In this document: positions 7,668 through 64,000 of the stretch, one piece after another
Layout of the letters: every line of letters begins with the position of its first letter
Position numbering within the stretch: the stretch's first letter is position 1
Assembly: GCA_038740375.1 (NCBI GenBank)
Contig: JAVYLW010000003.1
Location: forward strand, 4,545 to 68,544
DNA length: 64,000 nt
DNA from: Candidatus Pacearchaeota archaeon
GTDB lineage: Archaea; Nanobdellota; Nanobdellia; Pacearchaeales; GW2011-AR1
Direction of reading: 5' to 3'
Program-made: the position numbers and the translations under genes
The notes under the pieces: generated by a model
Seen by the model: only the letters and a program-made list of their open reading frames with translations
Told to the model about the DNA's origin: nothing
Databases searched by the model: none

Positions 7668-7671
7668 AAAG

Positions 7672-28897: not shown

Positions 28898-28936
28898 AAA
28901 GATTTTTAAATACTAAAGTTAATATTATTTTATTAA

Positions 28937-28943
28937 AAGAGGT
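28937..28943 (+). promoter_or_regulatory. Shine-Dalgarno-like AAGAGGT, 5 nt upstream of ATG 28949
   Basis: ttaaAAGAGGTaaaaaATG. Confidence 0.4.
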
Positions 28944-28948
28944 AAAAA

Positions 28949-30009: not shown

Positions 30010-30858
30010 ATGTTATTAAATTATGAAAATCTTTTTTTGATTATACTTGCTATTGTTTGGTTAGTTGGCGCTGTATTACAAGATTTAAAAAGACGTGAGG
30101 TAGATAATTTATGGAATTTTTCTTTAGTTATTTTTGCATTAGGATATAGATTCATTGTAATGTCTTATTCTGGAAATTACTGGTTTTTTATTAATGGAAT
30201 AATTGGAGTTGTAGTATTTTTTGTGTTAGGTAATTTATTTTATTATTCTAGGCTATTTGCCGGAGGAGATGCTAAACTTTTAATAGCATTAGGAGGAATA
30301 CTTCCTCTTAGTTATGATTGGATAATTAATGTTAAAATTTTTGGAATATATATATTATCTTTTTTATTTTTAGGTTCTTTATATGTATTAATCTGGGCTA
30401 TTTTTTTGATGTTTATTAATTGGAAAAAATTTAAAAAAGAATTTTTGAAGCAATGGAGAATTTATCATAATTATTTTTTTGTATTTTTTGTCATAATTCT
30501 TCTCTTTATATTAATTGTTTTATTGCTAGGTAAAAATATATTTGTTATTTTGGGAATAATTTTATCTTTATTTCCAGTTTTGTTTATATTTGCTAAATCT
30601 ATCGAAGAATCTTGCATGATAAAAGCATTAGATCCAAAAAAAATAACAGAAGGAGAATGGCTTTATAAAAATTTAAAAGTAGGTAAAAAGAAAATAATAG
30701 CAAATTGGGAGGGTATTTCTGAAGATGAATTAAGATTAATTAGAAATAAATATAAAAAGAAAGTATTAATTAAACAAGGAATTCCCTTTACTCCTAGTTT
30801 TTTGATAGGATTTTTGATTTTGTTATTTATTTTATGGAAATATAAACTTTTGTTTTAA
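30010..30858 (+). CDS. Prepilin/preflagellin peptidase (A24 family, PibD/FlaK/EppA-like)
   Basis: 282 aa polytopic protein. An Asp-containing first loop (VLQDLKRREVDN) and FAGGDAKLLIALGG give the two aspartyl motifs of A24 peptidases. The gene is adjacent to the pilin-like array. Confidence 0.8.
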   Translation: MLLNYENLFLIILAIVWLVGAVLQDLKRREVDNLWNFSLVIFALGYRFIVMSYSGNYWFFINGIIGVVVFFVLGNLFYYSRLFAGGDAKLLIALGGILPLSYDWIINVKIFGIYILSFLFLGSLYVLIWAIFLMFINWKKFKKEFLKQWRIYHNYFFVFFVIILLFILIVLLLGKNIFVILGIILSLFPVLFIFAKSIEESCMIKALDPKKITEGEWLYKNLKVGKKKIIANWEGISEDELRLIRNKYKKKVLIKQGIPFTPSFLIGFLILLFILWKYKLLF

Positions 30859-30939: not shown

Positions 30940-31233
30940 ATGAAAAAAAGAGAAAAATTAAGAGAAAATAAAAAAAAATTTTGGGACGATATTGATTCTA
31001 AACTTAAATGGGGATTTAAAGGTTTACAATTTTCTTTCGTTTTATTATTAATTATAATTTTTATTTTACTTGCAGTTGTTCTTGTTTCAAGCAAAGATAT
31101 AGCAGAAGTTAATAAGCTTATATTAAAATTACCTGAAGGTTATGATTATCTTGGAATATTAGCAGAAATAATTTTATTTATAGCTATTCCTTTTTTAATT
31201 GGAATCAAAATAGGAAGTAAGATTAAAAAATAA
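30940..31233 (+). CDS. Small membrane protein (97 aa)
   Basis: ATG ORF with two hydrophobic segments after a Lys-rich N-terminus. Confidence 0.45.
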   Translation: MKKREKLRENKKKFWDDIDSKLKWGFKGLQFSFVLLLIIIFILLAVVLVSSKDIAEVNKLILKLPEGYDYLGILAEIILFIAIPFLIGIKIGSKIKK

Positions 31234-42968: not shown

Positions 42969-43176
42969 GTTTTTATATAGAAAATCATAGTTTATAGAGT
43001 TTTGTAATTTATTTTTTATAAGTTTAATATACTTCAAATATACTGTTATATAAATTTATTTTTTAAAAATAAACTATTGAAAATTTATTAAAAGTTAAAA
43101 AGTTATTTTGAATAATTTATTTTTTGATAATCTTTATAAATTATTAAATATTAATATTTTTAAAAGAATCTTTGTT

Positions 43177-45949: not shown

Positions 45950-47677
45950 ATGGAAAAAAGAAATTTAGGTCTTATTAGATTTATAGCATTTATATTTTTT
46001 TTATTAATTACAATTCAAGGTATTTTTGCAGTTACTAATAAACCAAAAGTAGCTTATATTTATAGATCTCAGGGATATATTGATGAAAATGTTGTTGATG
46101 TTTTTAATGAAGCTGGTTTAGAAACAGTGTTTATTTCAGAAAAGAAAATACCTAATGATTTATCAGAATACAGATTTATTTTTGTTGGAGATGAGTTTTT
46201 TAATGGAAATATACCTGTAAATAAATATCAGACAATTTTATTTAACTTTAATCAAGTAGAAAGAGCAGGTCTTGTTCCTTTAGGAGGTATTGGAAAACTT
46301 GCTTCAAAAGAACCTTTATCTGTTAGTATCAATGGGACTTTTGTTCCTGTTTATACAATTGCTAAAGATAATAACGGAGTTTCTATATCTTATTATTATT
46401 TAAATAACTTTAATAAAGCAAAATCTGTAAAGAGTGTGGCTAGTACTTATACTACAAGTTCTGGCCCTGATTTTGGTAATGTTATTGCTTTTGTTTCAAA
46501 AGGTGAAAAATTATTAAATAGTAAAAGTGCTGGAGGAGATATATGCTTTTTTGGAATAACTAAATCAAAATATTGGACAGATGAAGCAAGAAATTTGTTT
46601 AAAAGTTGTGTTGAATTTGTAAATAAACCATTATCTTCTGAGATTACTTGTCAAAAAGATTCAGATTGTGGAATTTCAGGTTTTATAGATGAACCTGTTT
46701 GTTCTGGAAATGATTTAGTTCAAAAATACGTTACTTATAAATGTAATAAACCTGGAACTTTTGAAAGTAGTTGTTCTAATAAAACTACTATGAAAATTGT
46801 TGAAAATTGTTTAATTTGTTCTAATAATACTTGTCAAAATGTGAAATGTTTTAAGAATAAAGATTGTGATGATAAAAATTCTTCAACTGAAGATATTTGT
46901 CATAAAGCAGGTAGCCTTGATGCTTATTGTATACATACTGTTAAAAAAGAAAAAATAGTCATTGTTTCATTTATAGCAACTCCTAGTGAAACAAGTGTAA
47001 AATTAGATTTTTCTACTAATATAAATAATTCTGTTGTGAAAAATTATAAATTAAAAAATGGTGGTAATGATTGGATTAATGTTGATAATAATAGTTATAT
47101 TTTTACAGGTTTAAATCCTGATACAGAATATACTTTTTATGTTCAGGCAATAGATTATTTAAATGATAGTTCTGATATAGTTAATATTACTGTTAGGACA
47201 TTATCTCTTCCAGAGCCTCCTCCACAACAACCATTACCTTCTTCTGGCGGTGGTGGAAGTTCAGGGCCTATTCAAGGACAATTTAGTTGGTGCAGTAATA
47301 ATTGGACATGTACACAATGGTCTGAATGTATTAATGGTTTTCAGACTAGAAGTTGCGGAGTGCCTCCTGGAAAATGTATTCCTGAAAGAGAAAAACCTGC
47401 TGAGAAAAGAGAATGTGTTCCTTCTTTAAATCAATCAATTTCTACTTCTTTGAGTGAAACAGAAGATGCTAATTCGAGAAAAGAGTTTAATGAAAAAATT
47501 CCTGAAAACTTACCTTTTACTGATACAAGTAATTTAGTTAATAATCCTATAACTGGTGCTGCAATTGCTGCAAATATAGGTAAATATTCTTGGATATGGA
47601 TTCCTGTTTTAATTGCAGGAATAGTTCTTGCATATTATTTTTTAGCTGGTGGAAGATTTAAGAAACAAAGAATATAA
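45950..47677 (+). CDS. Surface protein with Cys-rich region, FN3-like domain, Pro/Gly linker, WxCTxWSEC module and C-terminal anchor
   Basis: 575 aa. Signal peptide (IRFIAFIFFLLITIQGIFA). FN3-like TGLNPDTEYTFYVQAID. PPQQPLPSSGGGGSSGP linker. WCSNNWTCTQWSECINGFQTRSC. C-terminal TM plus RFKKQRI. Confidence 0.7.
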   Translation: MEKRNLGLIRFIAFIFFLLITIQGIFAVTNKPKVAYIYRSQGYIDENVVDVFNEAGLETVFISEKKIPNDLSEYRFIFVGDEFFNGNIPVNKYQTILFNFNQVERAGLVPLGGIGKLASKEPLSVSINGTFVPVYTIAKDNNGVSISYYYLNNFNKAKSVKSVASTYTTSSGPDFGNVIAFVSKGEKLLNSKSAGGDICFFGITKSKYWTDEARNLFKSCVEFVNKPLSSEITCQKDSDCGISGFIDEPVCSGNDLVQKYVTYKCNKPGTFESSCSNKTTMKIVENCLICSNNTCQNVKCFKNKDCDDKNSSTEDICHKAGSLDAYCIHTVKKEKIVIVSFIATPSETSVKLDFSTNINNSVVKNYKLKNGGNDWINVDNNSYIFTGLNPDTEYTFYVQAIDYLNDSSDIVNITVRTLSLPEPPPQQPLPSSGGGGSSGPIQGQFSWCSNNWTCTQWSECINGFQTRSCGVPPGKCIPEREKPAEKRECVPSLNQSISTSLSETEDANSRKEFNEKIPENLPFTDTSNLVNNPITGAAIAANIGKYSWIWIPVLIAGIVLAYYFLAGGRFKKQRI

Positions 47678-54194: not shown

Positions 54195-54986
54195 ATGGCA
54201 ACTAAAACTGATAAACAGATAATAAGAAGAAAAAAGTTCATTACAGTTGAATTACCTATAATAAATTTTAAAGTAGAATTAATTGGAAATTCAACTAAAG
54301 ATATTATTGGAAGGACAATAAAATTAGATTTAACTAGACAATTAAAGGGAAAAAGTGTTGAAATGACTTTTAAAACAAAATTGGAAAATGATAAAGTTAT
54401 AGGAGTTCCTTTTAAAATAAAACTTCTTTCATATTTTATTAGAAGAATGATTAGGAGAAGAATAAGTTATGTAGAAGATTCTTTTAATGTTCAATCAAGA
54501 GAAAGTCTATTAAAGATAAAACCTTTTTTAATAACTAAAAGAAAAGTTTCAAGAAGAATAAGAAAAACTTTAAGAAATAGAGCTAAAAACTGGATTATAG
54601 ATTATATTTCTGAAAGGAGCGATTATGAAATCTTTAATGATATTATTTCAAATAAAGTTCAAAAGATGTTATCATTATATTTAAAAAAGACATATCCTCT
54701 TTCATTATGTGAGATAAGAATTTTAGAGATTGTAAGATCTTTAAGTCCTGAAGAAATTTCTAAAATAGAAGTGAGTAAAAAAATTGATAAAAAAATAAAA
54801 GATCAAGATGCGGAATATGAAATTGATAATAAAGGATTTGATAAAGAAGAAATTGAAAATAAGGAAATAAAGGAAGCTCAGAGTGTAATATCTGAAACCC
54901 AGAAAAAAGCAATTGAAATACAGGAAAATAATCATGATAAAAAGATTAAAAAAACTACTAAAAAATTAAAAAAAAGAGAAAGTTGA
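54195..54986 (+). CDS. rps3ae: Ribosomal protein S3Ae (S1e) with Lys/Glu-rich C-terminal extension
   Basis: The ATG abuts the L44e stop. IGRTIKLDLT..., FIRRMIRRRISYVEDSF and KKTYPLSLCEIRILEIV match conserved S3Ae blocks. Confidence 0.8.
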   Translation: MATKTDKQIIRRKKFITVELPIINFKVELIGNSTKDIIGRTIKLDLTRQLKGKSVEMTFKTKLENDKVIGVPFKIKLLSYFIRRMIRRRISYVEDSFNVQSRESLLKIKPFLITKRKVSRRIRKTLRNRAKNWIIDYISERSDYEIFNDIISNKVQKMLSLYLKKTYPLSLCEIRILEIVRSLSPEEISKIEVSKKIDKKIKDQDAEYEIDNKGFDKEEIENKEIKEAQSVISETQKKAIEIQENNHDKKIKKTTKKLKKRES

Positions 54987-54989
54987 GGA
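54985..54989 (+). promoter_or_regulatory. Shine-Dalgarno-like GAGGA, 8 nt upstream of the ndk ATG 54998
   Basis: agttGAGGAaacagaaaATG, located within the end of the S3Ae gene. Confidence 0.45.
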
Positions 54990-54997
54990 AACAGAAA

Positions 54998-55492
54998 ATG
55001 GTAATTGAACAAACTCTTGTTTTAATAAAACCTGATGGAGTTGAGAGAGGTCTTGTTGGTGAAATTATTAAAAGATTTGAACAGAGAGGTTTAAAATTAG
55101 TTGCATTAAAACTTGTTAAAATAGGAAAAGATCATGCTTTAAAGCATTATACAGATGATTTAGCAAAGAGGAGAGGTGAGGCTGTTAGAGAAAAAATGGT
55201 TGATTTTATTACTTCAGGTCCTGTTGTTGCTATGATAATCGAGGGTGTTGATGCAGTTGAAAATGTAAGAAAAATAGTTGGTTCAACAGAATCAAAAGAA
55301 GCTTTGCCTGGTACAATTAGAGGAGATTTTTCTCATGTAAGTTTTTCTCATGCAGATGAGAATGAAACTATTGTAAAGAATATAATACATGCTTCGTCTA
55401 GTAAACAAGATGCTGAATATGAAACTAAACTTTGGTTTTCTTTAGAAGAAATACATTCTTATAAAAGAGTAGATGAGCATCATGTATTTTAA
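54998..55492 (+). CDS. ndk: Nucleoside diphosphate kinase
   Basis: EQTLVLIKPDGVERGLVGEII.RFE.RGLK, GPVVAMIIEG, TIRGDF and NIIHAS (active-site His). ATG 54998 is preferred to the track TTG 54983. Confidence 0.9.
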   Translation: MVIEQTLVLIKPDGVERGLVGEIIKRFEQRGLKLVALKLVKIGKDHALKHYTDDLAKRRGEAVREKMVDFITSGPVVAMIIEGVDAVENVRKIVGSTESKEALPGTIRGDFSHVSFSHADENETIVKNIIHASSSKQDAEYETKLWFSLEEIHSYKRVDEHHVF

Positions 55493-55602: not shown

Positions 55603-55675
55603 GCCTGCATAGCTCAGTTGGTAGAGCACCTGCCTTGTAAGCAGGGGGTCGTCGGTTCGATCCCGGCTGCAGGCT
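55603..55675 (+). tRNA. tRNA-Thr (anticodon UGU)
   Basis: Hand fold: acceptor GCCTGCA/TGCAGGC, D arm GCTC-AGTTGGTA-GAGC, anticodon arm CCTGC-CTTGTAA-GCAGG, variable GGGTC, T arm GTCGG-TTCGATC-CCGGC. Confidence 0.9.
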
Positions 55676-56290: not shown

Positions 56291-56361
56291 GGCCTCATAG
56301 TTCAGTGGTAAAACACCTCTTTGACGTGGAGGAGTCCCAAGTTCAATTCTTGGTGGGGCCA
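56291..56361 (+). tRNA. tRNA-Val (anticodon GAC)
   Basis: Hand fold: acceptor GGCCTCA/TGGGGCC (one G-U), short D stem GTT/AAC, anticodon arm CCTCT-TTGACGT-GGAGG, T arm CCAAG-TTCAATT-CTTGG, discriminator A. Confidence 0.8.
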
Positions 56362-56611
56362 TATTTAATAAAAATTATTTGAAATAATTAAAAACTTTTT
56401 TAGTATTTTTTATATTTAAAGATAAATTTCATCAATAATTAATTTCTTTAGAAATCTTTGTTTTTAAAAATAGTTAAGATAATCTTAATTTTACTTACTA
56501 ACTTACTTACTAATTAATTTAATAAATAAGAAAAATTTATATATTATCTATTATATCACTTTATATATATGTTATAATTTTATTACAATATATATAATCA
56601 AAAGAGGGGTT

Positions 56612-56758
56612 ATGAAAAAATATCTGTTATTAATAGAGGATGAAGAATTATGGCAAAAATTTAAGGATTCTATTGAAAAAGATATTAACAGTGAGATTAT
56701 TGAAATGATTAGGAAAAAAGTAAAAGATAAAAAAGAGGTAAAAGATGTTAAGAAATAA
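56612..56758 (+). CDS. Small ribbon-helix-helix-like protein (48 aa); not in the ORF track
   Basis: Encodes MKKYLLLIEDEELWQKFKDSIEKDINSEIIEMIRKKVKDKKEVKDVKK: a beta-strand-like start followed by two helices, an Arc/CopG-like layout. A purine-rich AGAGGGG lies 4 nt upstream. It overlaps the next gene by 14 nt. Confidence 0.4.
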   Translation: MKKYLLLIEDEELWQKFKDSIEKDINSEIIEMIRKKVKDKKEVKDVKK

Positions 56759-58640
56759 TTCTTTTATAAATAAGAAGTCGCAAATTACTTTATTTATCAT
56801 TTTTGTAATAGTTATTGTTGCACTTATTTTTTTATTTTTTATATTTAAGGGTAAAATTATTAGTTCTAATATTCCTAAGAATTTTGAACCTGTTTATACT
56901 CATTATCTCTCTTGTATTGATTATGAAGCTAAGAATGGGGCTTTGATTCTTGGAGAGACAGGAGGACATATTAAGGAAACTTCTTTTTCTCCTGGAAGTA
57001 TTTATATGCCTTTTTCATCTCATCTCGGATTTTTAGGAAATGCAATTCCTTATTGGTATTATGTTTCAGGAAACGGTCTTGTTTATGAGAAAATTCCAAG
57101 TATTAATGATATGCAAGATGAAATTTCAGAATATATAGAACAAAATATTTTAAGAAATTGTGATTTTTCATATTTTGAAAAACAAGGATATGAGATTAAT
57201 TTAAGTGAAGCTATTGTAACAAGTGAGATTAAAGAAAATGTTATAATTAGTAAGGTAAAACAAAATATTGAAATTAAATACGATAAAAAAAGTTGGACTG
57301 GTAAGAATCATATTGTAGAGACAAAATCTAATTTAGGAAAATTTTATAATTTGGCTATAAAAATTTATAATCATAATAAGAAAAATATGTTTTTGGAGAA
57401 ATACGGTGTTGATATTTTAAGATTATATGCTCCTGTTGACGGGGTTGAAATTTCCTGTTCTCCAAAAATATGGTTTTTAACTCAAGTAAGAGAAAATTTA
57501 ATTCAGGCATTAGAGGCAAATATTCCTAAAATAAAAATTGATGGAGATTATTATAGACTTGAAAATAAAGATAATAAATATTATGTTCAAAATATTGGAG
57601 AAAAAACTCCTTTTAATGTTAATTTTATGTATTCTAGATATTGGCCTATGAAAATTGAAGTATGGCCTAGTGAAGATAATGTTCTAAGAGCTGATCCTGT
57701 AGGAATTCAAGAAGGTTTAGGAATACTTGGATTTTGTTATGTCCCTTATCATTTTGTATATGATTTTCATTTTCCTGTTTTGATACAAATATATTCTCAA
57801 GGAGAAATTTTTCAGTTTCCTGTTGTGGTAATAATAGATAAGAATCAGCCTAGAAAAGCACTTGATGGAAGTAGTGGTCCTAATATTGTTCCTGACTTGT
57901 GTTTGCGTAAAAATACAAAAATTACAATCTATACTTATAATAATAGTTTAAGTCCTATTCCAGCAAGAATAAAATTCAAATGTTTTGATAATACTTGCTA
58001 TATTGGAGAGGTAAGTGGAAACGGAGCTCCTTTAATTTCTGAATTTCCGCAATGTGGAAATGGATATATTATTGCTTCAAGTGATGGATATGAAACAAGA
58101 AAAGAGTTAATTTCAACTATAAATGAGGGAAGTTATAATATCTTTTTAGATAAAAAGTATAAGTTGAGTGTCGAAGTTAGGAATAAAGGAAACAAACTTG
58201 ATAAAAAAGCAATTATTACTTTTTCAAAAGAAAATGGTACTTCAACGACTGTTTCTTATCCAGATGTTAAGGAGATAGAATTAACAGAGGGTGAATATAA
58301 AGTTGTTGCTTATATTTATACAAATACAAGTTTATATTTGAAAGGTGGAAGCATGCGAAAATGTGTTGATGTTCCTAAAAGTAATATCTTCGGTTTTTTT
58401 GGAATTACAGAGGAGAAATGTTTTGATATGCAAATACCCGGTCAGACTATTGATATGGCAATTGCAGGCGGAGGTACTCAAAAAACTTATTTTCCTGAAT
58501 CAAGATTGTCAAGTTCGAAAAAGTTGATTATAGAACCTGAATTTTTTAATAATCCTAAAAAAATTGAAGATTTGCAAACAAACTTTAATTTGGTTGACAT
58601 TTCACATTTAAATTTTTATTTTGAAGAAAATGAAAATTAA
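56745..58640 (+). CDS. Large exported protein (631 aa) with prepilin-like N-terminus
   Basis: MLRNNSFINKKS/QITLFIIFVIVIVALIFLFFIF resembles the class III signal peptides of the 23271-29557 array. No known domain is recognised in the remainder. Confidence 0.75.
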   Translation: MLRNNSFINKKSQITLFIIFVIVIVALIFLFFIFKGKIISSNIPKNFEPVYTHYLSCIDYEAKNGALILGETGGHIKETSFSPGSIYMPFSSHLGFLGNAIPYWYYVSGNGLVYEKIPSINDMQDEISEYIEQNILRNCDFSYFEKQGYEINLSEAIVTSEIKENVIISKVKQNIEIKYDKKSWTGKNHIVETKSNLGKFYNLAIKIYNHNKKNMFLEKYGVDILRLYAPVDGVEISCSPKIWFLTQVRENLIQALEANIPKIKIDGDYYRLENKDNKYYVQNIGEKTPFNVNFMYSRYWPMKIEVWPSEDNVLRADPVGIQEGLGILGFCYVPYHFVYDFHFPVLIQIYSQGEIFQFPVVVIIDKNQPRKALDGSSGPNIVPDLCLRKNTKITIYTYNNSLSPIPARIKFKCFDNTCYIGEVSGNGAPLISEFPQCGNGYIIASSDGYETRKELISTINEGSYNIFLDKKYKLSVEVRNKGNKLDKKAIITFSKENGTSTTVSYPDVKEIELTEGEYKVVAYIYTNTSLYLKGGSMRKCVDVPKSNIFGFFGITEEKCFDMQIPGQTIDMAIAGGGTQKTYFPESRLSSSKKLIIEPEFFNNPKKIEDLQTNFNLVDISHLNFYFEENEN

Positions 58641-61600
58641 TGAAAAATATAAGTGTGTATTTAAATTGGATAATAAAAAAATTAGGCAGATTTTTTATTT
58701 TGTAATATTTTTAATTTTGATTCATATTCCTTTGATTAATTCTCAATCAATGTATTCTTCTAGTTTTAATGATGTTTCTTCATCAAGCTCATCTTTTAAT
58801 GTTCAACCAGGTTCTTCTAGTTTTTCTGGAAAAACTTACGGAGGTAGTAGTTTTAGCGGTGGAGTATATGGAGCTTCGATAGGTCCTCAATTTAATAATC
58901 CTGGATTTTATATTGGACCTGGATTTGTTTCTCCTGAAGTATATTGGCCTAAATTTAATAAAGAAGATTGTTTTGAAAGAGCAGATTTTATAATGCAGAT
59001 TGCTCCAGGAGGATGCACTCCTGCTGTTGTTAGATCTGATTTATTAGAAGAGCAAGATGTTCCTGTTTTTTGTAAAGTAATGTCAGTAACAGTTAATCCA
59101 CTGATTGATGTTTCTAGAATTAGAAGTATATATTTTAGAGGTAATAATCCTGCAGGAGTTTCTGGAATATCTTATTTTCCTGCACGAGCTGCTTTGAATA
59201 GTCAACAGACATTAATTAGTTCTCCAATTAATGATAATTTAGGTTATGTTGTTATAGTTTTGTCAAGAAAACAATCTGAAAAAGATATGCCTGATTTTAT
59301 TGAAGGAAACATAACTGCTGTAGTTGATTATGATGTTCAAGGAGCTTTTGGTATAGGAAATACGAATTTTTATATTAATGAGATGAGTGATGAAGAATGG
59401 TATAGAAATTATAAACAATATGGCTTTTGGAACGGTAAGGGTTATATTAGAGCTGATTCAATAGAGCCTGACAAAGCAACAATATCTATTTATAGAGATT
59501 CTGAACAAAGAATTTATTCGATTACACTTAAGAAAGGAGAAACATCAGGAGATATTTATTTAAATGGTTTTTATTGTGCTGCTGGATTGAATTTAAGACT
59601 TGAAAATATAGGAGCTCCTGTTGATTCAGCCTTATTGCAGATTAATGATCAACAAATTTGGGTTTCTAGAGGAGATAGGTTGATGAATAATAGATGTACT
59701 GTCACTAATTTAGAGGCTTATAATAATGGAGGAAAGATAAGTATTAGCTGTCCTGTTAGAAATGGAAGAATTGATCTTTCTTTAAATTCTGGAAGAGCTA
59801 ACTTAAGTGTTAATGGTTTAGACTATAAGTTATATTCAATTGGAGATGTTGTAAAATTAGGAAATGAAAATGAAGGAAACTGGTATTTAGGATATGTTGG
59901 TCAAGATTATAAGGGAAATGATTTTGTTGTTATTGTTCAAGATGAATATTCTGATACATATTATGAATTTAGCGATAAAGACGTTTTTAATACTGTTCAA
60001 GGAGTTTTATCAAAATCTACTATCTTAATAAGCGAAGAGCAGCTTCAAAAACAGATTAAAGAAGCAATTATAAAACAGTATACTATTAAATTAAGAGGTA
60101 TTTCTTCTGTAAGAGGAATTGAAGATAAATTAAAAGTATGCATAACAACTAAAGAAAGCTCTGATTGTGGAATAAGTATTGCAGATATATTAACTGCAAA
60201 AGATAGAGTTTGGGATTTAACAAAAGAAGATGAGAAAATAACAAAAGAATATTATGATTGGGCTATAAAATATTACGAGGATTTAATTTCTCTATATCCT
60301 GGAGAAAAAAGAGTTCAAGGTTCAAGCGAAGATAGTTATTCTGCTATGGCTCTATATGAAGCAGCTATAATGTCAAGAAGATTTGGAATGAATGAAAAAT
60401 CTCAAGAGTATTTAAATAAACTTTTAAGAGATTATCCTAATACTTTTTTAGCTAATAAAGTAGCAAGAGATGTTGAATTGTTGAATAAATATGGTTCTTC
60501 TAACTCAAGAGCTACTGTGCAAATTGGGACTGATAATTATTTTGTTGAATTATTAGACTTTAAAAAACCAACTAGATTTGATGCAAGTGCAACTTTGTTG
60601 ATAAACGGGAAAGAAACTGAAATAGGATTAAATGAGATTATTAATATAGGAATATCTAATGGAAGCTCTAGAAATATACAATTATCTGAGATTAACACAG
60701 ATTATGTAGTTTTGAAATATTCTAAAACTGCTTTAGAGAGATTTTATACTAGTTCAGATTATAAAACAGAAAGGCTAAATCTTCATGCGCAAACAGATGT
60801 TGATGGAGTTAGAGTTAAGCTAGTTAATATAAACCTTAAGGAACAAGCTAAAATATCTATAATTCCAAAAATGTTTGGACCAAGATCAGAGGCTAATTTT
60901 ACATTTAGAATCGGAATTGAAAAAAGGGCAATAAAATTATCTACTCAGCAGACAAAAGATTTGATAGAAAATCTTAAAAAAAATATAAAAGAATGGGAAA
61001 ATATTAATAATAAATTGGGAAAAATTGTAAGTTCAATGAAGGGTGCTTGTTTTGCTACTTCTGCTATGTTAACTGTTAAAAATCTAGTAAATGGCTGGAG
61101 TGGAGAATCTATGGCTAGAAAAGAAGTTATGACTAAATCAGGAGGTTGGAATGAGTTTTGCGAAAAGTTAGTTAGTGATAAAACTAGTTCTCCTTTAAAT
61201 GGAAAATCTTATACAGATTCAACAGTGCAAAAATGTCTTTTAGATCATGACTCTTATATTTCTAAAGATGTAGAGATATATAAGAATCAAATAGAAAAAA
61301 CTAATGATTTGATAAAACAAATACAAAAACAAGTAGGAATTCAGAAAACTGATATTTTAGATATGACAGGGCAAGTAGATTCTAGAAAAGTTGAAGATGA
61401 ATTTGCAAAAAAATTCAAGGAATTTTGCTTAAATTCTAAGGGAAGTATTACTCTTCCAGATGCATTTAATACCACAATTAATTTAGGAAAAGAAGGAGGT
61501 ATGTGTGATTGGGATACTCTTACTCAAGAACAAAGAAGGCAGATAATGACCTTAGTTAATACAAGGGACAGTATTTCAAGCCTAGGTGGAAGTTCTATTC

Positions 61601-64000
61601 TTCAGAATATGATTGATAAAGATCTTGGAAGGGTAGTTTTAGATTCAAAAAATTTTTGGGAAAATGAGGGTGCAAGAAGAAGAAATGAAGAAGAAAGAAA
61701 AAAGAATAATATGGGTATAAGAGCAATTGTTCCTGGCGGAGACAGAATTACCTACGGAGACATTAAAATAGTTACTAAAGGTGATTCTAATCATAATATT
61801 TATAAAAATTATAATGTAGGACAAGCTGTAATTTTAATTAATGTTCCTTTTAGGGAGAGTTATGCAGGACATGCTTTTGAAGCAGATTCTGAAGTTGCTG
61901 GAAAACAAGTTACTGTTCCTTTAATAAGACAGCCTGGAGGAGATTATACTGTAGATCCTAAAGGTGAAATATATTTAGTAGAAAGTGGTAAATTAGTTTC
62001 TGATAATGGTGCAAGGTCTGTTAGAGATTATATGAGTTTAAAAGGTATTATTAGATTTAGAGAGTCTAACGCGAAAGTCTATCAGAATAAGATTTTAAAT
62101 CCAGAGGATATGAGAGTTAAATATTTTGAAAGAGCACCTTATAAAGGTCTTCCTGCAGAAGTTCCTTTTGATGTTGAAAACGGATGGTATGTTGAATTAA
62201 CATACGAGCTATCAGGATTTGGAAGACCTTATGATGAGTCTGGAAGAGTTGTTAATTTTTGGATATGTAATGTTGGACCTAATGGAGCGATTGATTTTCA
62301 GAAAAGTTTAGATGACATTTGTAGATATTATAATGGACAAGCAACAGGAGAATTAGGTTTTGGAATTGATCCTTCTGAAGAAAGAAATCTTATAATGAGA
62401 GCTCAACAGGCAATATACGATGCTGCTAAACAATATGGTAAAGATAGAGTTATTATTAATGGTTATAGTTTTAAATCAGGAACTGCATTTGGAGGAGAAC
62501 AAGGAAGATGCAGTGATTTTATGAGTCCTTCTGATTGCAATATTTTGTTTAATGTTTGTGATCCTGTGATGTGTCCTTCTTCAAGATGTGATTTAGGAGG
62601 TGAATTTAGAGTTGATAATGTTGTTCAAACCGGAATAATAGGTAGTTTATTATTATGTTTACCAAATTATAAAGAAGGAATAGTTGTTCCAATATGTTTA
62701 TCTGGAGTTCATGCTGGAATTGAGGGTTATATTAGTATTATGAACTCTACAGTTGCTTGTTTAAATGAAAGTTTAACAACAGGAAGAAATATTGGAATCT
62801 GTGATGAAATTAAAAGTATATACTTATGCGAATTTTTCTGGAAGCAAGCTACACCTTTAATGAATATTCTGATTCCTAGAATGGTTGAATCTTTTTATGG
62901 TCAGGGAGTTAGAGGAGGAGGAGAATATTCAACTGTTCAAGAAGCTTGGAATAATATGCAGTCAAGTATAAAATATTTTACAAACGAATATGCTGTAAAT
63001 TCAATGACAGCATTTCAGGCAAGATCTATAGATAGTGTTGGAAGTGAAATATGTAAATCATTTAATTCAGTAACATATCCTAGTTCAAAAGATTTTTTTG
63101 ATAGATTAATAGAGCCAGATAGTCCTGTTCAATTTACTGGATGGTTTTCAGAAGATCAATATACTACAGCAACTATTCCTGCAACTTCTCATTATAAAGT
63201 TTATTTTCACATTTATGCAGGAAAAGATCAAGGTGCTTATTATACTGTTTATTTGAAAGATGTTCCTCCTATTAACAATATTTTTTTAAATCAAATTTAT
63301 GTTGTTGATAGAGGCTATGTTTCTCGAGGAAGTCAGGTTGATAGAGCAATAGACTTTACAGGAGTTTCTGGTTACAAACAAATGTGTATAAATATAAATG
63401 GAAAAGATGAATGCGGTTTTGGAAAAGTTTCAACCTCTTTTTTAATAAATAGCATTTCTGATGCATATGCAGAAGAACAAGCAAATACTTTAAATATTAA
63501 AACTTCAAAAGAATGTGTTGCTGGAACTCCATCATTAATATCTGCTATAAATCCAAGTTTACAACAAGGTGCTCAAGATATCATTGATCCTCAAATGTAT
63601 AACTATGGAATAATTAGAGTATGTTCTACTGAAAATCCTGGTAAAAGAGTGCTTCCTAGTGGAGAGTTTGATACTACAAACTCTACTTTTGATAGATGGA
63701 AAGAAGTAGGATATTGTGATGATCCTACAATAAAATGTTGGCTCGATACGAGTTCTGTTAAAAATGTTATTAAGAATAAAGGAATATTGAATAAAACTTT
63801 ACAAAACATAGATTTAAATGTTTTAGGAGAAATTGATTTTTGGACTCCTGAACAGAGTACTAGTGTTGCAGCAGAATCGCAAAAAGAAATTGAATCTTTA
63901 ATTATAAATCCTGGAGAAAATAAACTTTCTATTGAAAATAAGATATCTCCAATAGTTAAAAAATTAAGAGATCTTTCTAATTTAGGCCCTTCCAATAAAT
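58630..64000 (+). CDS. Giant secreted Cys-rich protein, 3'-truncated by the window edge (at least 1790 codons); not in the ORF track
   Basis: ATG 58630 overlaps the upstream gene by 11 nt, and the frame stays open to position 64000 (checked codon by codon). Sec-type signal (IFYFVIFLILIHIPLINSQS), Ser/Gly-rich segment, a TPR-like stretch (YYDWAIKYYEDLISLYPG...ALYEAAIMSRRFG...YLNKLLRDYPN), and many Cys clusters (e.g. CSDFMSPSDCNILFNVCDPVMCPSSRCD). Confidence 0.85.
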   Translation, partial: MKINEKYKCVFKLDNKKIRQIFYFVIFLILIHIPLINSQSMYSSSFNDVSSSSSSFNVQPGSSSFSGKTYGGSSFSGGVYGASIGPQFNNPGFYIGPGFVSPEVYWPKFNKEDCFERADFIMQIAPGGCTPAVVRSDLLEEQDVPVFCKVMSVTVNPLIDVSRIRSIYFRGNNPAGVSGISYFPARAALNSQQTLISSPINDNLGYVVIVLSRKQSEKDMPDFIEGNITAVVDYDVQGAFGIGNTNFYINEMSDEEWYRNYKQYGFWNGKGYIRADSIEPDKATISIYRDSEQRIYSITLKKGETSGDIYLNGFYCAAGLNLRLENIGAPVDSALLQINDQQIWVSRGDRLMNNRCTVTNLEAYNNGGKISISCPVRNGRIDLSLNSGRANLSVNGLDYKLYSIGDVVKLGNENEGNWYLGYVGQDYKGNDFVVIVQDEYSDTYYEFSDKDVFNTVQGVLSKSTILISEEQLQKQIKEAIIKQYTIKLRGISSVRGIEDKLKVCITTKESSDCGISIADILTAKDRVWDLTKEDEKITKEYYDWAIKYYEDLISLYPGEKRVQGSSEDSYSAMALYEAAIMSRRFGMNEKSQEYLNKLLRDYPNTFLANKVARDVELLNKYGSSNSRATVQIGTDNYFVELLDFKKPTRFDASATLLINGKETEIGLNEIINIGISNGSSRNIQLSEINTDYVVLKYSKTALERFYTSSDYKTERLNLHAQTDVDGVRVKLVNINLKEQAKISIIPKMFGPRSEANFTFRIGIEKRAIKLSTQQTKDLIENLKKNIKEWENINNKLGKIVSSMKGACFATSAMLTVKNLVNGWSGESMARKEVMTKSGGWNEFCEKLVSDKTSSPLNGKSYTDSTVQKCLLDHDSYISKDVEIYKNQIEKTNDLIKQIQKQVGIQKTDILDMTGQVDSRKVEDEFAKKFKEFCLNSKGSITLPDAFNTTINLGKEGGMCDWDTLTQEQRRQIMTLVNTRDSISSLGGSSILQNMIDKDLGRVVLDSKNFWENEGARRRNEEERKKNNMGIRAIVPGGDRITYGDIKIVTKGDSNHNIYKNYNVGQAVILINVPFRESYAGHAFEADSEVAGKQVTVPLIRQPGGDYTVDPKGEIYLVESGKLVSDNGARSVRDYMSLKGIIRFRESNAKVYQNKILNPEDMRVKYFERAPYKGLPAEVPFDVENGWYVELTYELSGFGRPYDESGRVVNFWICNVGPNGAIDFQKSLDDICRYYNGQATGELGFGIDPSEERNLIMRAQQAIYDAAKQYGKDRVIINGYSFKSGTAFGGEQGRCSDFMSPSDCNILFNVCDPVMCPSSRCDLGGEFRVDNVVQTGIIGSLLLCLPNYKEGIVVPICLSGVHAGIEGYISIMNSTVACLNESLTTGRNIGICDEIKSIYLCEFFWKQATPLMNILIPRMVESFYGQGVRGGGEYSTVQEAWNNMQSSIKYFTNEYAVNSMTAFQARSIDSVGSEICKSFNSVTYPSSKDFFDRLIEPDSPVQFTGWFSEDQYTTATIPATSHYKVYFHIYAGKDQGAYYTVYLKDVPPINNIFLNQIYVVDRGYVSRGSQVDRAIDFTGVSGYKQMCININGKDECGFGKVSTSFLINSISDAYAEEQANTLNIKTSKECVAGTPSLISAINPSLQQGAQDIIDPQMYNYGIIRVCSTENPGKRVLPSGEFDTTNSTFDRWKEVGYCDDPTIKCWLDTSSVKNVIKNKGILNKTLQNIDLNVLGEIDFWTPEQSTSVAAESQKEIESLIINPGENKLSIENKISPIVKKLRDLSNLGPSNK

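What the first reader, a model, noticed from the sequence alone, without database searches (positions are those of the whole stretch)
58630..64000. Giant open-ended exoprotein gene that the ORF track misses
Reading frame 1 from ATG 58630 contains no stop up to the last base of the window (1790 complete codons). This makes it by far the largest gene here, and it is incomplete. It is absent from the supplied track only because it lacks a stop. The only ORF the track shows inside it (63603-63995, minus strand) is an antisense shadow. The product has a cleavable-looking Sec signal, a Ser/Gly-rich spacer, a TPR-like segment and many Cys clusters, which points to an extracellular disulfide-bonded protein. 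I recognise no catalytic or known adhesin domain. In a reduced, probably host-dependent archaeon, such a protein is a prime candidate for host-cell contact.
Basis: seen in the sequence. Interest (0 to 1): 0.85.

Follow-up and report, generated by a model that had tools for sequence, protein, structure and literature searches.

The report
Giant surface protein of Pacearchaeota
The open frame is a real gene for a roughly 1,900-residue, cysteine-rich exported protein found only in two groups of tiny symbiotic archaea; it sits in a conserved three-gene unit with a pilin-like membrane partner and its own control element, and some relatives carry bacterial-cell-wall-cutting enzymes at their tip, so it is a good lead to how these cells engage hosts.

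Summary
Observation confirmed. Frame 1 from ATG 58630 is open for all 1790 codons (chance about 1e-75). An identical NCBI protein (Ca. Pacearchaeota, "hypothetical") is 1937 aa, so only 147 residues are missing.

The gene belongs to a large family (more than 600 protein clusters, 232 species genomes) limited to Pacearchaeota/Woesearchaeota. It has native codon GC, usually lies near the ribosomal protein S3Ae gene, and is absent from viral contigs.

Anatomy: a Sec-type signal, a Gly/Ser/Tyr/Asn-rich spacer, then a roughly 1,750-aa trunk of constant domain lengths with 28 invariant Cys. Only a TPR stretch resembles any known fold. The C-terminal tail is hypervariable. In a sister clade it carries murein hydrolases (SLT, Amidase_3); here it carries one 87-aa family-specific module.

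New context:
- A 631-aa partner with a pilin-like processing motif lies directly upstream in 69 of 72 loci.
- A 48-aa micro-ORF precedes the partner.
- A unique (A-S-T-W)n tract abuts the TATA box, and it is present exactly when the micro-ORF is present (44/44 vs 0/25).

Best reading (about 0.5): a regulated surface complex that presents a swappable distal module to a host envelope. The function is inferred, not shown. The literature has already flagged the murein-hydrolase members.

The parts
56493..56525 (.). Tetranucleotide-periodic tract (A-S-T-W)n. The exact run ACTTACTAACTTACTTACTA is at 56493-56512 and continues in degenerate form to about 56525. It is a putative operator abutting the promoter.
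   Evidence: It is the only such site in the window. In 1.05 Mb of window plus 83 loci, exact runs of 5 or more units occur at 31 sites, all 150-265 nt upstream of the partner gene, versus 0 in 20 shuffles. It is present in 44/44 loci that have the micro-ORF and in 0/25 that lack it.
56527..56543 (+). BRE/TATA-like promoter element TAAGAAAAATTTATATA.
   Evidence: The motif TAAGAAA(G/C)ATTTATATA directly follows the tract in nearly all aligned upstream regions. Promoter function is inferred from the archaeal BRE/TATA consensus (own knowledge).
56600..56609 (+). Shine-Dalgarno-like AAAAGAGGGG in front of the micro-ORF.
   Evidence: Apart from the ATG itself, this is the only positionally conserved signal upstream of the micro-ORF start: information peaks at -9/-8, and AAAGAGG recurs across loci.
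56612..56758 (+). 48-aa micro-ORF MKKYLLLIEDEELWQKFKDSIEKDINSEIIEMIRKKVK..., a putative small DNA-binding regulator. It overlaps the partner's start by 14 nt.
   Evidence: The same ORF is found in 44 loci, with 62% mean column identity and 13 invariant residues, although the giant protein is only 33-57% identical across those loci. It has no significant Pfam, PDB, PHROGs or PADLOC hit. It co-occurs perfectly with the tract.
56745..58640 (+). 631-aa partner protein with a pilin-like (class III-type) N-terminus KK-S|QITLFIIFVIVIVALIF and a large extracellular domain with 10 Cys.
   Evidence: A homologue lies directly upstream of the giant gene in 69/72 loci, mostly with a 4-nt overlap. The family has more than 2,400 homologues, all unannotated. 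Across 119 homologues, position -1 is always A/G/S, -2 is K/R in 97, +1 is always Q, and about 22 hydrophobic residues follow, then R/K. No Pfam family is detected.
58630..58743 (+). Giant protein aa 1-38: Sec-type signal peptide (basic n-region, hydrophobic core aa 20-36, ...LINS|QS).
   Evidence: This is the only strongly hydrophobic segment of the protein. Homologues show the same n-h-c layout, ending in motifs such as ISA|AE, VLA|AD or VYA|Q. No dedicated signal-peptide predictor was available.
58744..58884 (+). aa 39-85: Ser/Gly-rich low-complexity spacer.
   Evidence: The region is 10-127 aa long and Gly/Ser/Tyr/Asn-rich in homologues. AlphaFold pLDDT is about 40.
58885..59949 (+). aa 86-440: conserved N-terminal beta-rich domains with 6 invariant Cys.
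   Evidence: Median identity to homologues is 46%. AlphaFold pLDDT is mostly 75-90 and the region is all-beta. There is no Foldseek match at E < 0.01.
59950..60924 (+). aa 441-765: variable helical linker, TPR-like repeats (aa 533-620) and a beta-sandwich (aa 626-765).
   Evidence: Pfam TPR_6 scores 19.3 bits against a cut-off of 26.3, at aa 574-605. Foldseek probability is 0.96-1.0 to TPR structures (1na3, 2xev) over about 85 residues.
60925..61719 (+). aa 766-1030: bundle of long helices with 3 invariant Cys.
   Evidence: AlphaFold predicts helices of 29-53 residues with pLDDT about 70-88. The length is constant (227-273 aa) across the family.
61720..62505 (+). aa 1031-1292: variable segment plus a conserved beta domain (aa 1151-1292).
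   Evidence: The beta domain is 134-155 aa in all homologues and has 52% median identity. pLDDT is 70-87.
62506..63204 (+). aa 1293-1525: the most conserved part. It is a Cys-rich, partly hydrophobic helical core with 11 invariant Cys and invariant motifs such as CDPVxCPxSRCDLGG and RGGGEY.
   Evidence: Median identity is 65% (minimum 50%), and every Cys is present in 81-82 of 81-82 homologues. AlphaFold fails here, with pLDDT about 25-40. The only internal hydropathy peak is at about aa 1350. No domain or structure hit was found.
63205..63999 (+). aa 1526-1790: conserved beta/Cys-rich region (6 invariant Cys) and the start of a three-helix segment. The window ends here. The missing aa 1791-1937 hold the end of the helices, a Ser-rich linker and one 87-aa C-terminal module.
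   Evidence: The 87-aa module recurs in 1-3 tandem copies in about a quarter of the sampled family members. It has only 24 representative hits in 1.84 billion proteins, mostly giants or fragments.

Best explanation
The ORF is the first 92% of a genuine, vertically inherited gene. It encodes a Sec-exported, disulfide-rich, multi-domain surface protein of a family restricted to Pacearchaeota/Woesearchaeota.

It is the last gene of a three-gene unit:
- a 48-aa micro-protein, a putative autoregulator that acts on a unique (ASTW)n tract next to the TATA box;
- a 631-aa protein whose N-terminus looks like a type IV pilin-like processing and anchor segment;
- the giant protein.

Proposed mechanism:
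1. The partner is cleaved by the prepilin peptidase encoded in the same window.
2. Its hydrophobic helix holds it in the membrane or at the end of a pilus-like fibre.
3. The co-translated giant protein docks on the partner.
4. The conserved ~1,750-aa trunk projects a swappable C-terminal module towards another cell's envelope.
5. In a sister clade that module is a murein hydrolase (SLT and/or Amidase_3) that would cut bacterial peptidoglycan. In this genome it is a small family-specific module, presumably a binding module.

Shown: the gene is real; the family and its distribution; export signals at the motif level; invariant cysteines; the operon architecture and its conservation; the co-occurrence of tract and micro-ORF; the variable tail and its hydrolase domains in relatives.

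Inferred: disulfide bonding; cleavage of the partner; physical association of partner and giant protein; regulation by the micro-protein; any role in host contact.
For: Real gene.

Family and taxonomy: 603 and 622 hits in two searches; 232 matching stretches in species-representative genomes, and the 80 loci kept carry Pace-/Woese-/Nanoarchaeota, plain 'archaeon' or (one case) 'bacterium' labels.

Native and vertical:
- GC3 is 0.13, like the neighbouring genes.
- S3Ae, NDK, Gins51 and phosphoglycerate mutase are neighbours in long loci.
- S3Ae is within reach upstream in 25/48 loci.
- There are no relatives in viral contigs and no paralogous domains elsewhere in the window or loci.

Export and extracellular location:
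- Signal-like N-termini are seen across the family.
- Hydrophobicity is found only at the N-terminus.
- 28 Cys are invariant.
- Exported proteins of this window have 2-7% Cys against 0-1.4% for cytoplasmic ones.

Operon:
- The partner is directly upstream in 69/72 loci, usually with a 4-nt overlap.
- The micro-ORF is conserved.
- The tract is cassette-specific (31/31 exact sites).
- The tract is tied to the micro-ORF: 44/44 against 0/25.

Pilin-like partner:
- The motif [KR][AGS]|Q[VI]T[IV]FII.A is invariant.
- The window has a Peptidase_A24 gene at 30010-30858, scoring 32.7 bits against a 26.5 cut-off.
- It has a T2SSE ATPase at 10894-13179 and other pilin-like ORFs.

Modular tail:
- Trunk domain lengths are constant, while the tail ranges from under 100 to about 1,250 aa.
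- SLT is found in 6 of 40 tails, and Amidase_3 in one of them at E = 5.7e-56.
- 16 of 120 hits carry PF01520 or PF01464, and sources name some of them amidase or SLT proteins.

Literature: large extracellular murein-lytic proteins of Pace-/Woesearchaeota have been proposed to attach to bacterial hosts (PMC8204110; PMC10936187).
Against: - No experiment bears on the function.
- The window's clade (core identity 53-81% to this protein) has no hydrolase tail among the sampled members. The hydrolases sit only in the other major clade, so the host-wall argument transfers only by homology of the trunk.
- The trunk is far more conserved than adhesins usually are. That suits an enzyme or an envelope machine as well as a contact device.
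- The class III signal call rests on a motif. Pfam Class_IIIsignal scores only E = 0.24-4 and no pilin model matches. An uncleaved signal anchor is possible.
- The cassette is about 26 kb from the pilus-type genes in the window and is not next to such genes in L001-L003.
- The ribbon-helix-helix idea for the micro-protein found no support.
- AlphaFold fails on the most conserved core, and Foldseek finds nothing but TPR, so the mechanism of the trunk is unknown.
Confidence: 0.5

Rival explanations
1. Two-component S-layer or cell-wall scaffold. The giant protein would be the outer canopy and the 631-aa protein its membrane stalk, as in SlaA/SlaB of Sulfolobales. It would have no specific role in host contact.
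For: - A large exported protein is paired and translationally coupled with a membrane-anchored partner.
- It appears single-copy, is vertically inherited and is widespread across the lineage.
- No other S-layer candidate was identified in the window.
- DPANN S-layer proteins are unrecognisable by sequence (bioRxiv 10.1101/2023.10.27.564410).
Against: - It has 28 invariant Cys and long helical bundles, rather than arrays of Ig-like domains.
- N-glycosylation sequons are depleted: 9 observed against about 18 expected. Proposed DPANN S-layer proteins are sequon-rich and Ig-rich.
- It shows 50-78% identity in its core across deep lineages, whereas archaeal S-layer proteins diverge quickly.
- Foldseek against the PDB library gave no match at E <= 0.001, and no S-layer protein appears among the 50 matches listed for either model.
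- A dedicated operator and regulator, and enzyme-bearing swappable tails, are unexpected for a lattice protein.
Confidence: 0.17
2. An extracellular enzyme whose active site lies in the ultra-conserved Cys-rich core (aa 1293-1735), for example a new hydrolase or cross-linking enzyme. It would act on the archaeon's own envelope or on scavenged polymers. The partner would serve as a membrane tether and the tail as a substrate-binding or accessory module.
For: - The core has many invariant polar residues (D, E, H, R, Y, Q) beside the cysteines, and its conservation (65% median identity) is unusual for a scaffold.
- Accessory hydrolase or binding modules on a conserved catalytic body are common in carbohydrate-active enzymes (own knowledge).
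- The metabolically poorest Pacearchaeota are thought to depend on scavenged nucleotides (PMC8204110).
Against: - No profile, sequence or fold match to any enzyme family was found.
- About 1,200 further conserved residues of non-catalytic-looking domains, and the pilin-like partner, are not explained.
- The idea cannot be tested with the tools at hand, because the core could not be modelled.
Confidence: 0.15
3. A polymorphic-toxin-like, contact-dependent competition protein (CdiA/Rhs-like logic): a conserved delivery trunk with exchangeable C-terminal toxins aimed at competitors rather than hosts.
For: A constant trunk carries a hypervariable tail after a fixed boundary and a Ser-rich linker. 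Tail modules are exchanged between neighbouring subclades.
Against: - No conserved small 'immunity' gene follows the giant gene. Downstream are TruB or TFIIB on the opposite strand in L001 and L002, and only an unrelated 106-aa ORF in L003.
- No TPS, LXG, PAAR, Rhs or other toxin-delivery domain was found.
- The identified tail domains are wall hydrolases and a small repeat module, not nucleases or pore formers.
- It appears single-copy with no orphan tail cassettes in the loci.
Confidence: 0.08

Closest known systems
Large extracellular murein-lytic-transglycosylase proteins of Pacearchaeota/Woesearchaeota ('fam00969', up to 3,000 aa; Castelle et al. 2021, PMC8204110; also noted in PMC10936187)
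   Same: Same lineages, same size class and same predicted extracellular location. Trunk-wide homology links P0001 to giants that carry SLT and/or Amidase_3 and that sources name amidase or SLT proteins (E = 7e-294, 35% identity over 68% of the query). One relative is 3,016 aa.
   Different: The window's protein and its whole clade lack the lytic domain that defined the published family. I could not check directly that fam00969 is this family, because the identifier was not found in the two supplementary files held as text. The trunk anatomy, the pilin-like partner, the micro-ORF and the operator tract are not mentioned in the passages of the papers that I read.
Bacterial type IV pilus tip complexes: minor pilins plus the large Sec-exported non-pilin adhesin PilY1/PilC (own knowledge)
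   Same: A pilin-type protein and a large Sec-exported non-pilin protein are encoded side by side. The large protein would be presented by the pilin-like one. A prepilin peptidase and a secretion ATPase are encoded in the genome.
   Different: There is no sequence or fold similarity to PilY1. The partner is a single 630-aa protein rather than a set of small minor pilins. The cassette is not inside a pilus operon. The organism is an archaeon. Association with a fibre is untested.
SlaA/SlaB two-component S-layer of Sulfolobales (PMC11329633; bioRxiv 10.1101/2023.10.27.564410)
   Same: A large exported protein is encoded next to a membrane-anchored partner.
   Different: According to those papers, SlaA and SlaB are built of many Ig-like folds with many glycosylation sites. 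This protein is Cys-rich, helix-rich and sequon-poor, and it carries variable enzyme tails. Its partner's hydrophobic segment is N-terminal and pilin-like. No S-layer protein appears in the Foldseek lists.
Polymorphic toxin / contact-dependent inhibition proteins (CdiA, Rhs; own knowledge)
   Same: A very long conserved trunk carries an exchangeable C-terminal module.
   Different: There is no immunity gene, no two-partner-secretion or other delivery domain, and no toxin fold. The tails hold wall hydrolases or a small repeat module.
SPEARE giant surface proteins of Nanohaloarchaeota (own knowledge; not examined here)
   Same: They are giant exported proteins of DPANN archaea proposed to mediate host attachment.
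   Different: No homology was detected in any search. The hits returned by the protein searches that carry a taxon name are Pace-/Woese-/Nanoarchaeota or unclassified archaea. The domain content differs, as recalled from memory.

Membership tests
Pace-/Woesearchaeota giant 'trunk' protein family (unnamed; members annotated as hypothetical, TPR-repeat, amidase or SLT-domain proteins) | Homology along the whole ~1,750-aa trunk, with constant domain lengths | tested here: met
   The best 120 homologues cover mostly 89-100% of the query at 41-72% identity, with some at lower coverage. The reciprocal hit from an amidase/SLT member has E = 7e-294. Domain lengths are constant.
Pace-/Woesearchaeota giant 'trunk' protein family (unnamed; members annotated as hypothetical, TPR-repeat, amidase or SLT-domain proteins) | The set of 28 invariant cysteines | tested here: met
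   All 28 positions are Cys in the window protein and in at least 97% of 72-83 homologues.
Pace-/Woesearchaeota giant 'trunk' protein family (unnamed; members annotated as hypothetical, TPR-repeat, amidase or SLT-domain proteins) | The ~630-aa partner gene lies immediately upstream | tested here: met
   In the window the partner is at 56745-58640 and overlaps the giant gene's start by 11 nt. The same arrangement holds in 69/72 loci.
Murein-lytic large extracellular proteins (SLT PF01464 / Amidase_3 PF01520), as described in PMC8204110 | Presence of a lytic transglycosylase or muramoyl-alanine amidase domain | tested here: not met
   Full-length P0001 has no NCBIfam hit, no precomputed Pfam domain is listed for it, and the window part has no Pfam hit of this kind at E <= 0.1. 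Its tail is 127 aa and holds only the 87-aa module. The domains occur only in the other major clade.
Tetratricopeptide repeat (TPR) proteins | A match to a TPR profile above the curated threshold | tested here: not met
   TPR_6 scores 19.3 bits against a cut-off of 26.3, at aa 574-605.
Tetratricopeptide repeat (TPR) proteins | Helix-turn-helix repeat fold superposable on solved TPR domains | tested here: met
   The AlphaFold model (helices at aa 533-620, pLDDT about 75-90) matches 1na3, 2xev and other TPR structures with Foldseek probability 0.96-1.0 and target TM-score 0.4-0.6 over about 85 residues. The E-values are only 0.1-0.5.
Archaeal S-layer proteins (SlaA-like or Ig-array type) | An architecture dominated by Ig-like beta-sandwiches, many N-glycosylation sequons, and structural similarity to solved S-layer proteins | tested here: not met
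   The architecture mixes long helical bundles with a Cys-rich core. There are 33 Cys. Sequons number 9 against about 18 expected. No S-layer chain appears in the Foldseek lists.
Archaeal S-layer proteins (SlaA-like or Ig-array type) | Very high expression and lattice formation on the cell surface | not testable with these tools
   No transcriptome, proteome or imaging data are available for this organism.
Type IV pilin-like proteins with a class III signal peptide (applies to the partner, 56745-58640) | Basic n-region, [KR]-[GAS] cleavage motif, then about 20 hydrophobic residues | tested here: met
   In 119 homologues, -1 is A/G/S in all 119, -2 is K/R in 97 and +1 is Q in all 119. FII.AI.IV follows, then R/K at +23.
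Type IV pilin-like proteins with a class III signal peptide (applies to the partner, 56745-58640) | A match to the curated models (Pfam Class_IIIsignal PF04021, archaeal pilin N-terminal models) | tested here: not met
   PF04021 appears only at E = 0.24 and 4 in 2 of 10 N-termini, and there is no pilin model hit. The window's other pilin-like ORFs also match no Pfam model, so the models seem insensitive in this lineage.
Type IV pilin-like proteins with a class III signal peptide (applies to the partner, 56745-58640) | A prepilin peptidase and an assembly ATPase encoded in the genome | tested here: met
   Peptidase_A24 is at 30010-30858, with 32.7 bits against a 26.5 cut-off. A T2SSE ATPase is at 10894-13179.
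Type IV pilin-like proteins with a class III signal peptide (applies to the partner, 56745-58640) | Cleavage by the peptidase and incorporation into a fibre | not testable with these tools
   This needs biochemistry or imaging.
Ribbon-helix-helix DNA-binding proteins (applies to the micro-ORF, 56612-56758) | A profile or structure match to RHH families | tested here: not met
   No RHH family appears in Pfam even at E <= 1 for 24 members. The profile search of PDB sequences gives only a designed protein at E = 0.012. The beta-alpha-alpha pattern is my visual impression only.
Polymorphic toxin systems | A conserved trunk with a variable C-terminal module | tested here: met
   
Polymorphic toxin systems | A cognate immunity gene directly downstream, and a recognised delivery or toxin domain | tested here: not met
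   Downstream genes differ and are housekeeping genes in L001-L003. No such domains were detected. The downstream region of the window's own gene is outside the window.

The most novel reading that the evidence does not exclude
The three-gene unit encodes a so far undescribed, lineage-wide machine of Pace-/Woesearchaeota. A pilin-anchored giant protein of new fold would have a disulfide-locked, partly hydrophobic conserved core that performs the conserved step of engaging or breaching another cell's envelope. Exchangeable distal modules (murein hydrolases, repeat modules, unknown domains) would adapt it to the host type. Expression would be switched by a 45-aa micro-regulator that binds a tetranucleotide-periodic (ASTW)n operator of a kind not described before. 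If so, the tail module could be read as a predictor of host type (bacterial versus other) for thousands of uncultured DPANN genomes.
Probability: 0.3. Interest if true: 0.8.

Novelty: new variant of a known kind. Interest (0 to 1): 0.6.

Why it matters
Pacearchaeota and Woesearchaeota are among the most abundant uncultured archaea, yet their hosts and the way they attach are unknown. This gene family is one of the few large, lineage-specific, exported proteins they share.

The analysis turns a bare "hypothetical protein" into a defined system with testable parts:
- a regulated operon with a unique operator;
- a pilin-like partner, matched by a prepilin peptidase in the same genome;
- a trunk with 28 invariant cysteines and no known fold;
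- a swappable tip that, in a sister clade, is a bacterial-wall hydrolase.

This offers handles for metatranscriptomics, heterologous expression, structure determination and host prediction. It also warns that annotating some members as "N-acetylmuramoyl-L-alanine amidase" describes less than 10% of the protein.

Tried and rejected
1. Sequence-profile annotation of the giant protein, the partner and the micro-ORF against Pfam, NCBIfam, PHROGs, PADLOC and PDB sequences found nothing above threshold.

2. AlphaFold on two tiles (aa 80-760, pLDDT 77; aa 740-1937, pLDDT 61), followed by Foldseek against PDB and BFVD, recognised only the TPR stretch. The most conserved core was not modelled.

3. Looking up the source contig of P0001 to recover the 3' flank failed; it is not on record.

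4. Viral or mobile origin was rejected. There are no relatives in IMG/VR, GC3 is native, and the housekeeping neighbours are conserved.

5. A defence system was rejected: no PADLOC hit, and the gene is a core-genome gene.

6. A ribbon-helix-helix fold for the micro-ORF was not supported.

7. Searching for the 87-aa C-terminal module in other protein contexts, to get a functional hint, showed that it is essentially confined to this family.

8. Paralogous trunk domains elsewhere in the window or loci: none.

9. Looking for 'fam00969' in the supplements of PMC8204110 found no occurrence in the two files held as text. One literature search was wasted on loose terms, and the metaproteome paper PMC11537232 gave nothing specific.

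10. Haem or metal-cluster motifs were considered and dropped. By eye I saw no CxxCH motif in the printed sequence, the protein has only 8 His, and the Cys count is even. No dedicated motif search was run.


Full report
**Observation**

Translation of window 58630-63999 in frame 1 gives 1790 codons with no stop. The local composition is 37% A and 33% T, so a stop is expected about every 11 codons. An open run of this length has a chance probability near 1e-75, and the other five frames of the stretch contain 89-266 stops. The preceding in-frame stop ends at 58611, and 58630 is the first ATG. It overlaps the stop codon of the upstream ORF 56745-58640 by 11 nt. The gene is the largest in the window. 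A database protein identical over all 1790 residues (P0001, NCBI [quoted passage not shown], from a 137-kb contig) is 1937 aa long, so only 147 residues lie beyond the window.

**Family and origin**

The protein has 603 relatives at E <= 1e-3 in the clustered protein collection. The best 120 are 1,665-2,410 aa long, mostly cover 89-100% of the query at 41-72% identity, and carry at most the names "hypothetical" or "TPR repeat protein". A scan of one genome per GTDB species found 232 matching stretches. The 80 loci kept carry Pacearchaeota, Woesearchaeota, Nanoarchaeota/Nanoarchaeia or plain "archaeon" labels, apart from one MAG labelled "bacterium".

Third-position GC of the gene (0.13) equals that of the neighbouring housekeeping genes. 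Its higher overall GC comes from codon positions 1 and 2, that is, from amino-acid composition. In three long loci from other genomes the gene sits, as here, near the genes for NDK, ribosomal protein S3Ae, phosphoglycerate mutase and FtsY/SRP54, and in two of the three near Gins51. S3Ae is within the short upstream flank in 25 of 48 further loci. No relative occurs in IMG/VR viral contigs, there is no hit to defence-system models, and no trunk domain has a paralogue elsewhere in the window or the loci. This is a native, vertically inherited, apparently single-copy gene.

**Anatomy**

The only strongly hydrophobic segment is N-terminal (aa 17-37). Across the family the N-termini show a basic n-region, a 15-20-residue hydrophobic core and small residues before the mature end (…ISA|AE, …VLA|AD, …VYA|Q; here …LINS|QS). 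This is the layout of Sec/signal-peptidase-I signals; no dedicated predictor was available.

A low-complexity Gly/Ser/Tyr/Asn-rich spacer of 10-127 aa follows (aa 39-85 here). Then comes a trunk whose domains keep nearly constant lengths in all relatives:
- beta-rich N-terminal domains (aa 86-440);
- a variable helical linker;
- a TPR-like stretch (aa 533-620);
- a beta-sandwich (aa 626-765);
- a bundle of long helices (aa 766-1030);
- a variable segment followed by a beta domain (aa 1151-1292);
- a Cys-rich, partly hydrophobic helical core (aa 1293-1525);
- a further beta/Cys-rich region (aa 1526-1735);
- a three-helix segment (aa 1736-1810).

Of the 33 cysteines, 28 are invariant in 72-83 homologues. 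The Cys-rich core is the best-conserved part, with 65% median and 50% minimum identity.

AlphaFold models built on 24-26 sequences are good for aa 80-760 (pLDDT 77, pTM 0.63). For aa 740-1937 they are mediocre (pLDDT 61), and the conserved core sits at pLDDT 25-40. Foldseek against the PDB and BFVD recognises only the TPR stretch (probability up to 1.0 to 1na3 and 2xev). All other matches are generic and weak: E is 0.02 or worse, except one full-length BFVD alignment at E = 1e-4 with TM-score 0.07, and TM-scores overall are about 0.05. Pfam gives only a sub-threshold TPR_6 hit. NCBIfam, PHROGs and PDB sequence or profile searches give nothing.

In this window, proteins with N-terminal hydrophobic segments have 2-7% Cys, whereas cytoplasmic housekeeping proteins have 0-1.4%. 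A Cys-rich exoproteome therefore seems to be a trait of the organism, which supports an extracellular disulfide-bonded state by inference. N-glycosylation sequons are half as frequent as composition predicts (9 against 18).

**The gene is part of a conserved three-gene unit**

A homologue of the upstream 631-aa protein lies directly in front of the giant gene in 69 of 72 loci that have enough flank, mostly with a 4-nt overlap. That family has more than 2,400 members and no annotation.

Its N-terminus carries a strikingly invariant motif. In 119 homologues the residue before an invariant Gln is always Ala, Gly or Ser, and the one before that is Lys or Arg in 97. The Gln is followed by [VI]-T-[IV]-F-I-I-x-A-I and about 22 hydrophobic residues in all, ending in Arg/Lys. 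From my own knowledge, this is the pattern of archaeal class III (type IV pilin-like) signal peptides; Gln at +1 is typical of one group of archaeal pilins. The curated Pfam models do not detect it. They also miss the other pilin-like small ORFs of this window. The window does encode a type IV prepilin peptidase (30010-30858, Peptidase_A24, 32.7 bits against a 26.5 cut-off) and a secretion/pilus ATPase (10894-13179, T2SSE).

In front of the partner, overlapping its start, lies a 48-aa ORF (56612-56758), MKKYLLLIEDEELWQKFKDSIEKDINSEIIEMIRKKVK…. The same ORF, with 13 invariant residues, is present in 44 loci. In four loci a 62-74-aa ORF with a helix-turn-helix-like sequence takes its place. My first guess of a ribbon-helix-helix fold found no support in Pfam or PDB profile searches.

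**A cassette-specific DNA element**

About 90-120 nt upstream of the micro-ORF start, nearly all such loci carry a tract of 5-8 tetranucleotide units A-[C/G]-T-[A/T]. In the window this is ACTTACTAACTTACTTACTA at 56493-56512, fading out by about 56525. A BRE/TATA-like TAAGAAA(G/C)ATTTATATA follows immediately (56527-56543 here), and an AAAGAGG ribosome-binding motif precedes the ATG.

In 1.05 Mb of sequence (window plus 83 loci), exact runs of at least five units occur at 31 places. All lie 150-265 nt upstream of the partner gene, none lie elsewhere, and none appear in 20 shuffles. With a relaxed score, 44 of 44 loci with the micro-ORF have the tract (at least 21 of 24 positions), and 0 of 25 loci without it do (14-18 of 24; background elsewhere in each locus is at most 20). 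This perfect co-occurrence, and the position abutting the promoter, make a regulator-operator pair the most economical reading. Binding is not shown.

**The variable tail and the link to the literature**

After about aa 1810 the family diverges completely, with tails from under 100 to about 1,250 aa.
- Pfam finds an SLT lytic-transglycosylase domain in 6 of 40 tails (best E = 4.8e-16) and an Amidase_3 domain in one of them (E = 5.7e-56).
- A search seeded with that protein (from locus L083) returns 16 of 120 relatives with PF01520 and/or PF01464. Sources name some of them "N-acetylmuramoyl-L-alanine amidase" or "transglycosylase SLT domain-containing protein". The same search returns P0001 itself at E = 7e-294.
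- A neighbour-joining tree of the conserved core splits the family into two major groups. The hydrolase tails occur in several subclades of one group. The window's group (core identity 53-81% to P0001) has none; one member has a Peptidase_M10 hit.
- The window protein's tail is a Ser-rich linker plus one 87-aa module (aa 1851-1937). About a quarter of the sampled family sequences have this module, in one to three tandem copies. It has only 24 representative hits among 1.84 billion proteins, mostly giants or fragments.

Castelle et al. [quoted passage not shown] They proposed that these are extracellular enzymes that attach to bacterial cell walls, possibly those of hosts (PMC8204110). A later survey repeats this (PMC10936187). 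The present family very probably is that family or contains it; one relative here is 3,016 aa. I could not verify the identifier.

**Mechanism**

What is shown:
- a regulated-looking operon;
- motif-level export signals on both large proteins;
- translational coupling of the partner and giant genes;
- a rigidly conserved trunk and a swappable distal tail that is sometimes a bacterial-wall hydrolase.

What I infer:
- The partner is processed by the A24 peptidase. It stays as a membrane or fibre anchor through its hydrophobic helix.
- The giant protein docks on the partner.
- The trunk projects the C-terminal module towards a neighbouring cell's envelope.
- The invariant core performs a common step that is still unknown (binding, insertion or catalysis).

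I give this reading about 0.5.

The main rivals are these:
- A two-component S-layer (0.17). It is disfavoured by the cysteines, the helical bundles, the sequon depletion, the high conservation, the dedicated control element and the enzyme tails. Candidate DPANN S-layer proteins are Ig-rich, sequon-rich and fast-evolving.
- A new extracellular enzyme with its active site in the conserved core (0.15). This is untestable here because the core could not be modelled.
- A polymorphic-toxin-like competition protein (0.08). No immunity gene and no toxin or delivery domains were found.

**Comparison and novelty**

In working logic the closest analogue is a pilus-tip complex of pilin-like proteins plus a large Sec-exported non-pilin protein (PilY1-type; own knowledge). 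There is no homology to it, and fibre association is untested.

In membership terms the protein belongs to the unnamed Pace-/Woesearchaeota giant-trunk family. It fails the defining feature of the published "murein-lytic" description, because it has no SLT or amidase domain. I therefore rate it a new variant of a known kind: same trunk, non-lytic tail. The passages I read do not mention the pilin-like partner, the micro-ORF with its (ASTW)n tract, or the trunk-plus-swappable-tail architecture.

The interest is moderate to high for DPANN biology. The system is ubiquitous in two very abundant uncultured lineages, has no known fold outside the TPR stretch, and offers concrete experiments. All functional statements remain inference.

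**Limits**

- No signal-peptide or transmembrane predictor was available.
- The structure models rest on shallow alignments because the tool restricts the input sequences.
- The 3' flank of this particular gene could not be retrieved.
- The taxonomic labels are those of the depositors.

Noticed in passing
window 56493-56543 (and upstream of the cassette in 44 loci): A tetranucleotide-periodic (A-S-T-W)n tract abuts a BRE/TATA-like element. It is found only in front of this cassette and only where the 45-48-aa micro-ORF is present (44/44 against 0/25). It looks like a new operator-regulator pair.
   Followed up: yes
L016:1708-1932, L017:1481-1672, L020:1329-1550, L034:1632-1820: In four loci the micro-ORF position is taken by a 62-74-aa ORF with a helix-turn-helix-like sequence (...GYTISELSKKLNLSRQTIANCFAFLEGAQKV...), and the (ASTW)n tract is absent. 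This suggests a regulator swap at the same promoter.
   Followed up: partly
window 10894-13179 (-), 23271-23450, 27849-29557, 30010-30858, 30940-31233 (+): A type IV pilus-like gene set is present: a T2SSE-family ATPase, a Peptidase_A24 prepilin peptidase and several small ORFs with KKG/KRG|hydrophobic N-termini. One of them (28949-29557) has 14 Cys in 202 aa. None of the small ORFs matches a Pfam model.
   Followed up: partly
window, all ORFs of 120 aa or more: ORFs with an N-terminal hydrophobic segment are markedly Cys-rich (2-7%; for example 43108-44871 with 24 Cys and 45950-47677 with 20 Cys). Also Cys-rich is 14889-17543 (32 Cys), whose called start lacks such a segment. Cytoplasmic housekeeping proteins have 0-1.4% Cys. 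This suggests wide use of extracellular disulfides in this presumably anaerobic DPANN archaeon.
   Followed up: partly
window 43108-44871 (+), 18694-20640 (+), 45950-47677 (+): Other probable surface proteins: a GLUG-motif protein (E = 7e-19), a second protein with a weak GLUG hit and an N-terminal hydrophobic segment, and a 575-aa protein with a fibronectin type III domain.
   Followed up: no
window 23465-24841 (+): A 458-aa exported, Cys-rich protein scores just above the Pfam threshold for Defensin_beta_2 (23.4 against 22.2 bits, aa 186-217). This is probably a chance match of Cys spacing.
   Followed up: no
window 54195-55492 versus L001-L003: The S3Ae-NDK gene pair next to the cassette is on the same strand as the cassette in the window but on the opposite strand in the other genomes examined (25/25 S3Ae hits are on the minus strand). 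This points to a local inversion in this lineage. tRNA-Thr (55603-55675) and tRNA-Val (56291-56361) lie between them and the cassette, and several other loci also show a tRNA-like 3' end just upstream of the tract.
   Followed up: partly
L062 (JAUUWR010000007.1): A MAG labelled 'bacterium' carries a typical member of this archaeal family, with three tandem copies of the 87-aa C-terminal module. It is probably a mislabelled or contaminated bin.
   Followed up: no
L021:3797-5287 plus 5251-9777; L031:3803-4993 plus 4827-8771: In two genomes the giant gene is split into two ORFs, by a frameshift, a pseudogene or an assembly error.
   Followed up: no
P0097 and P0332 (relatives): Other tail contents occur in single relatives: a Peptidase_M10 (matrixin) hit and a PF04536 hit. 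Most long tails (up to about 1,250 aa, for example in L059 and L071) have little or no recognisable domain content.
   Followed up: no
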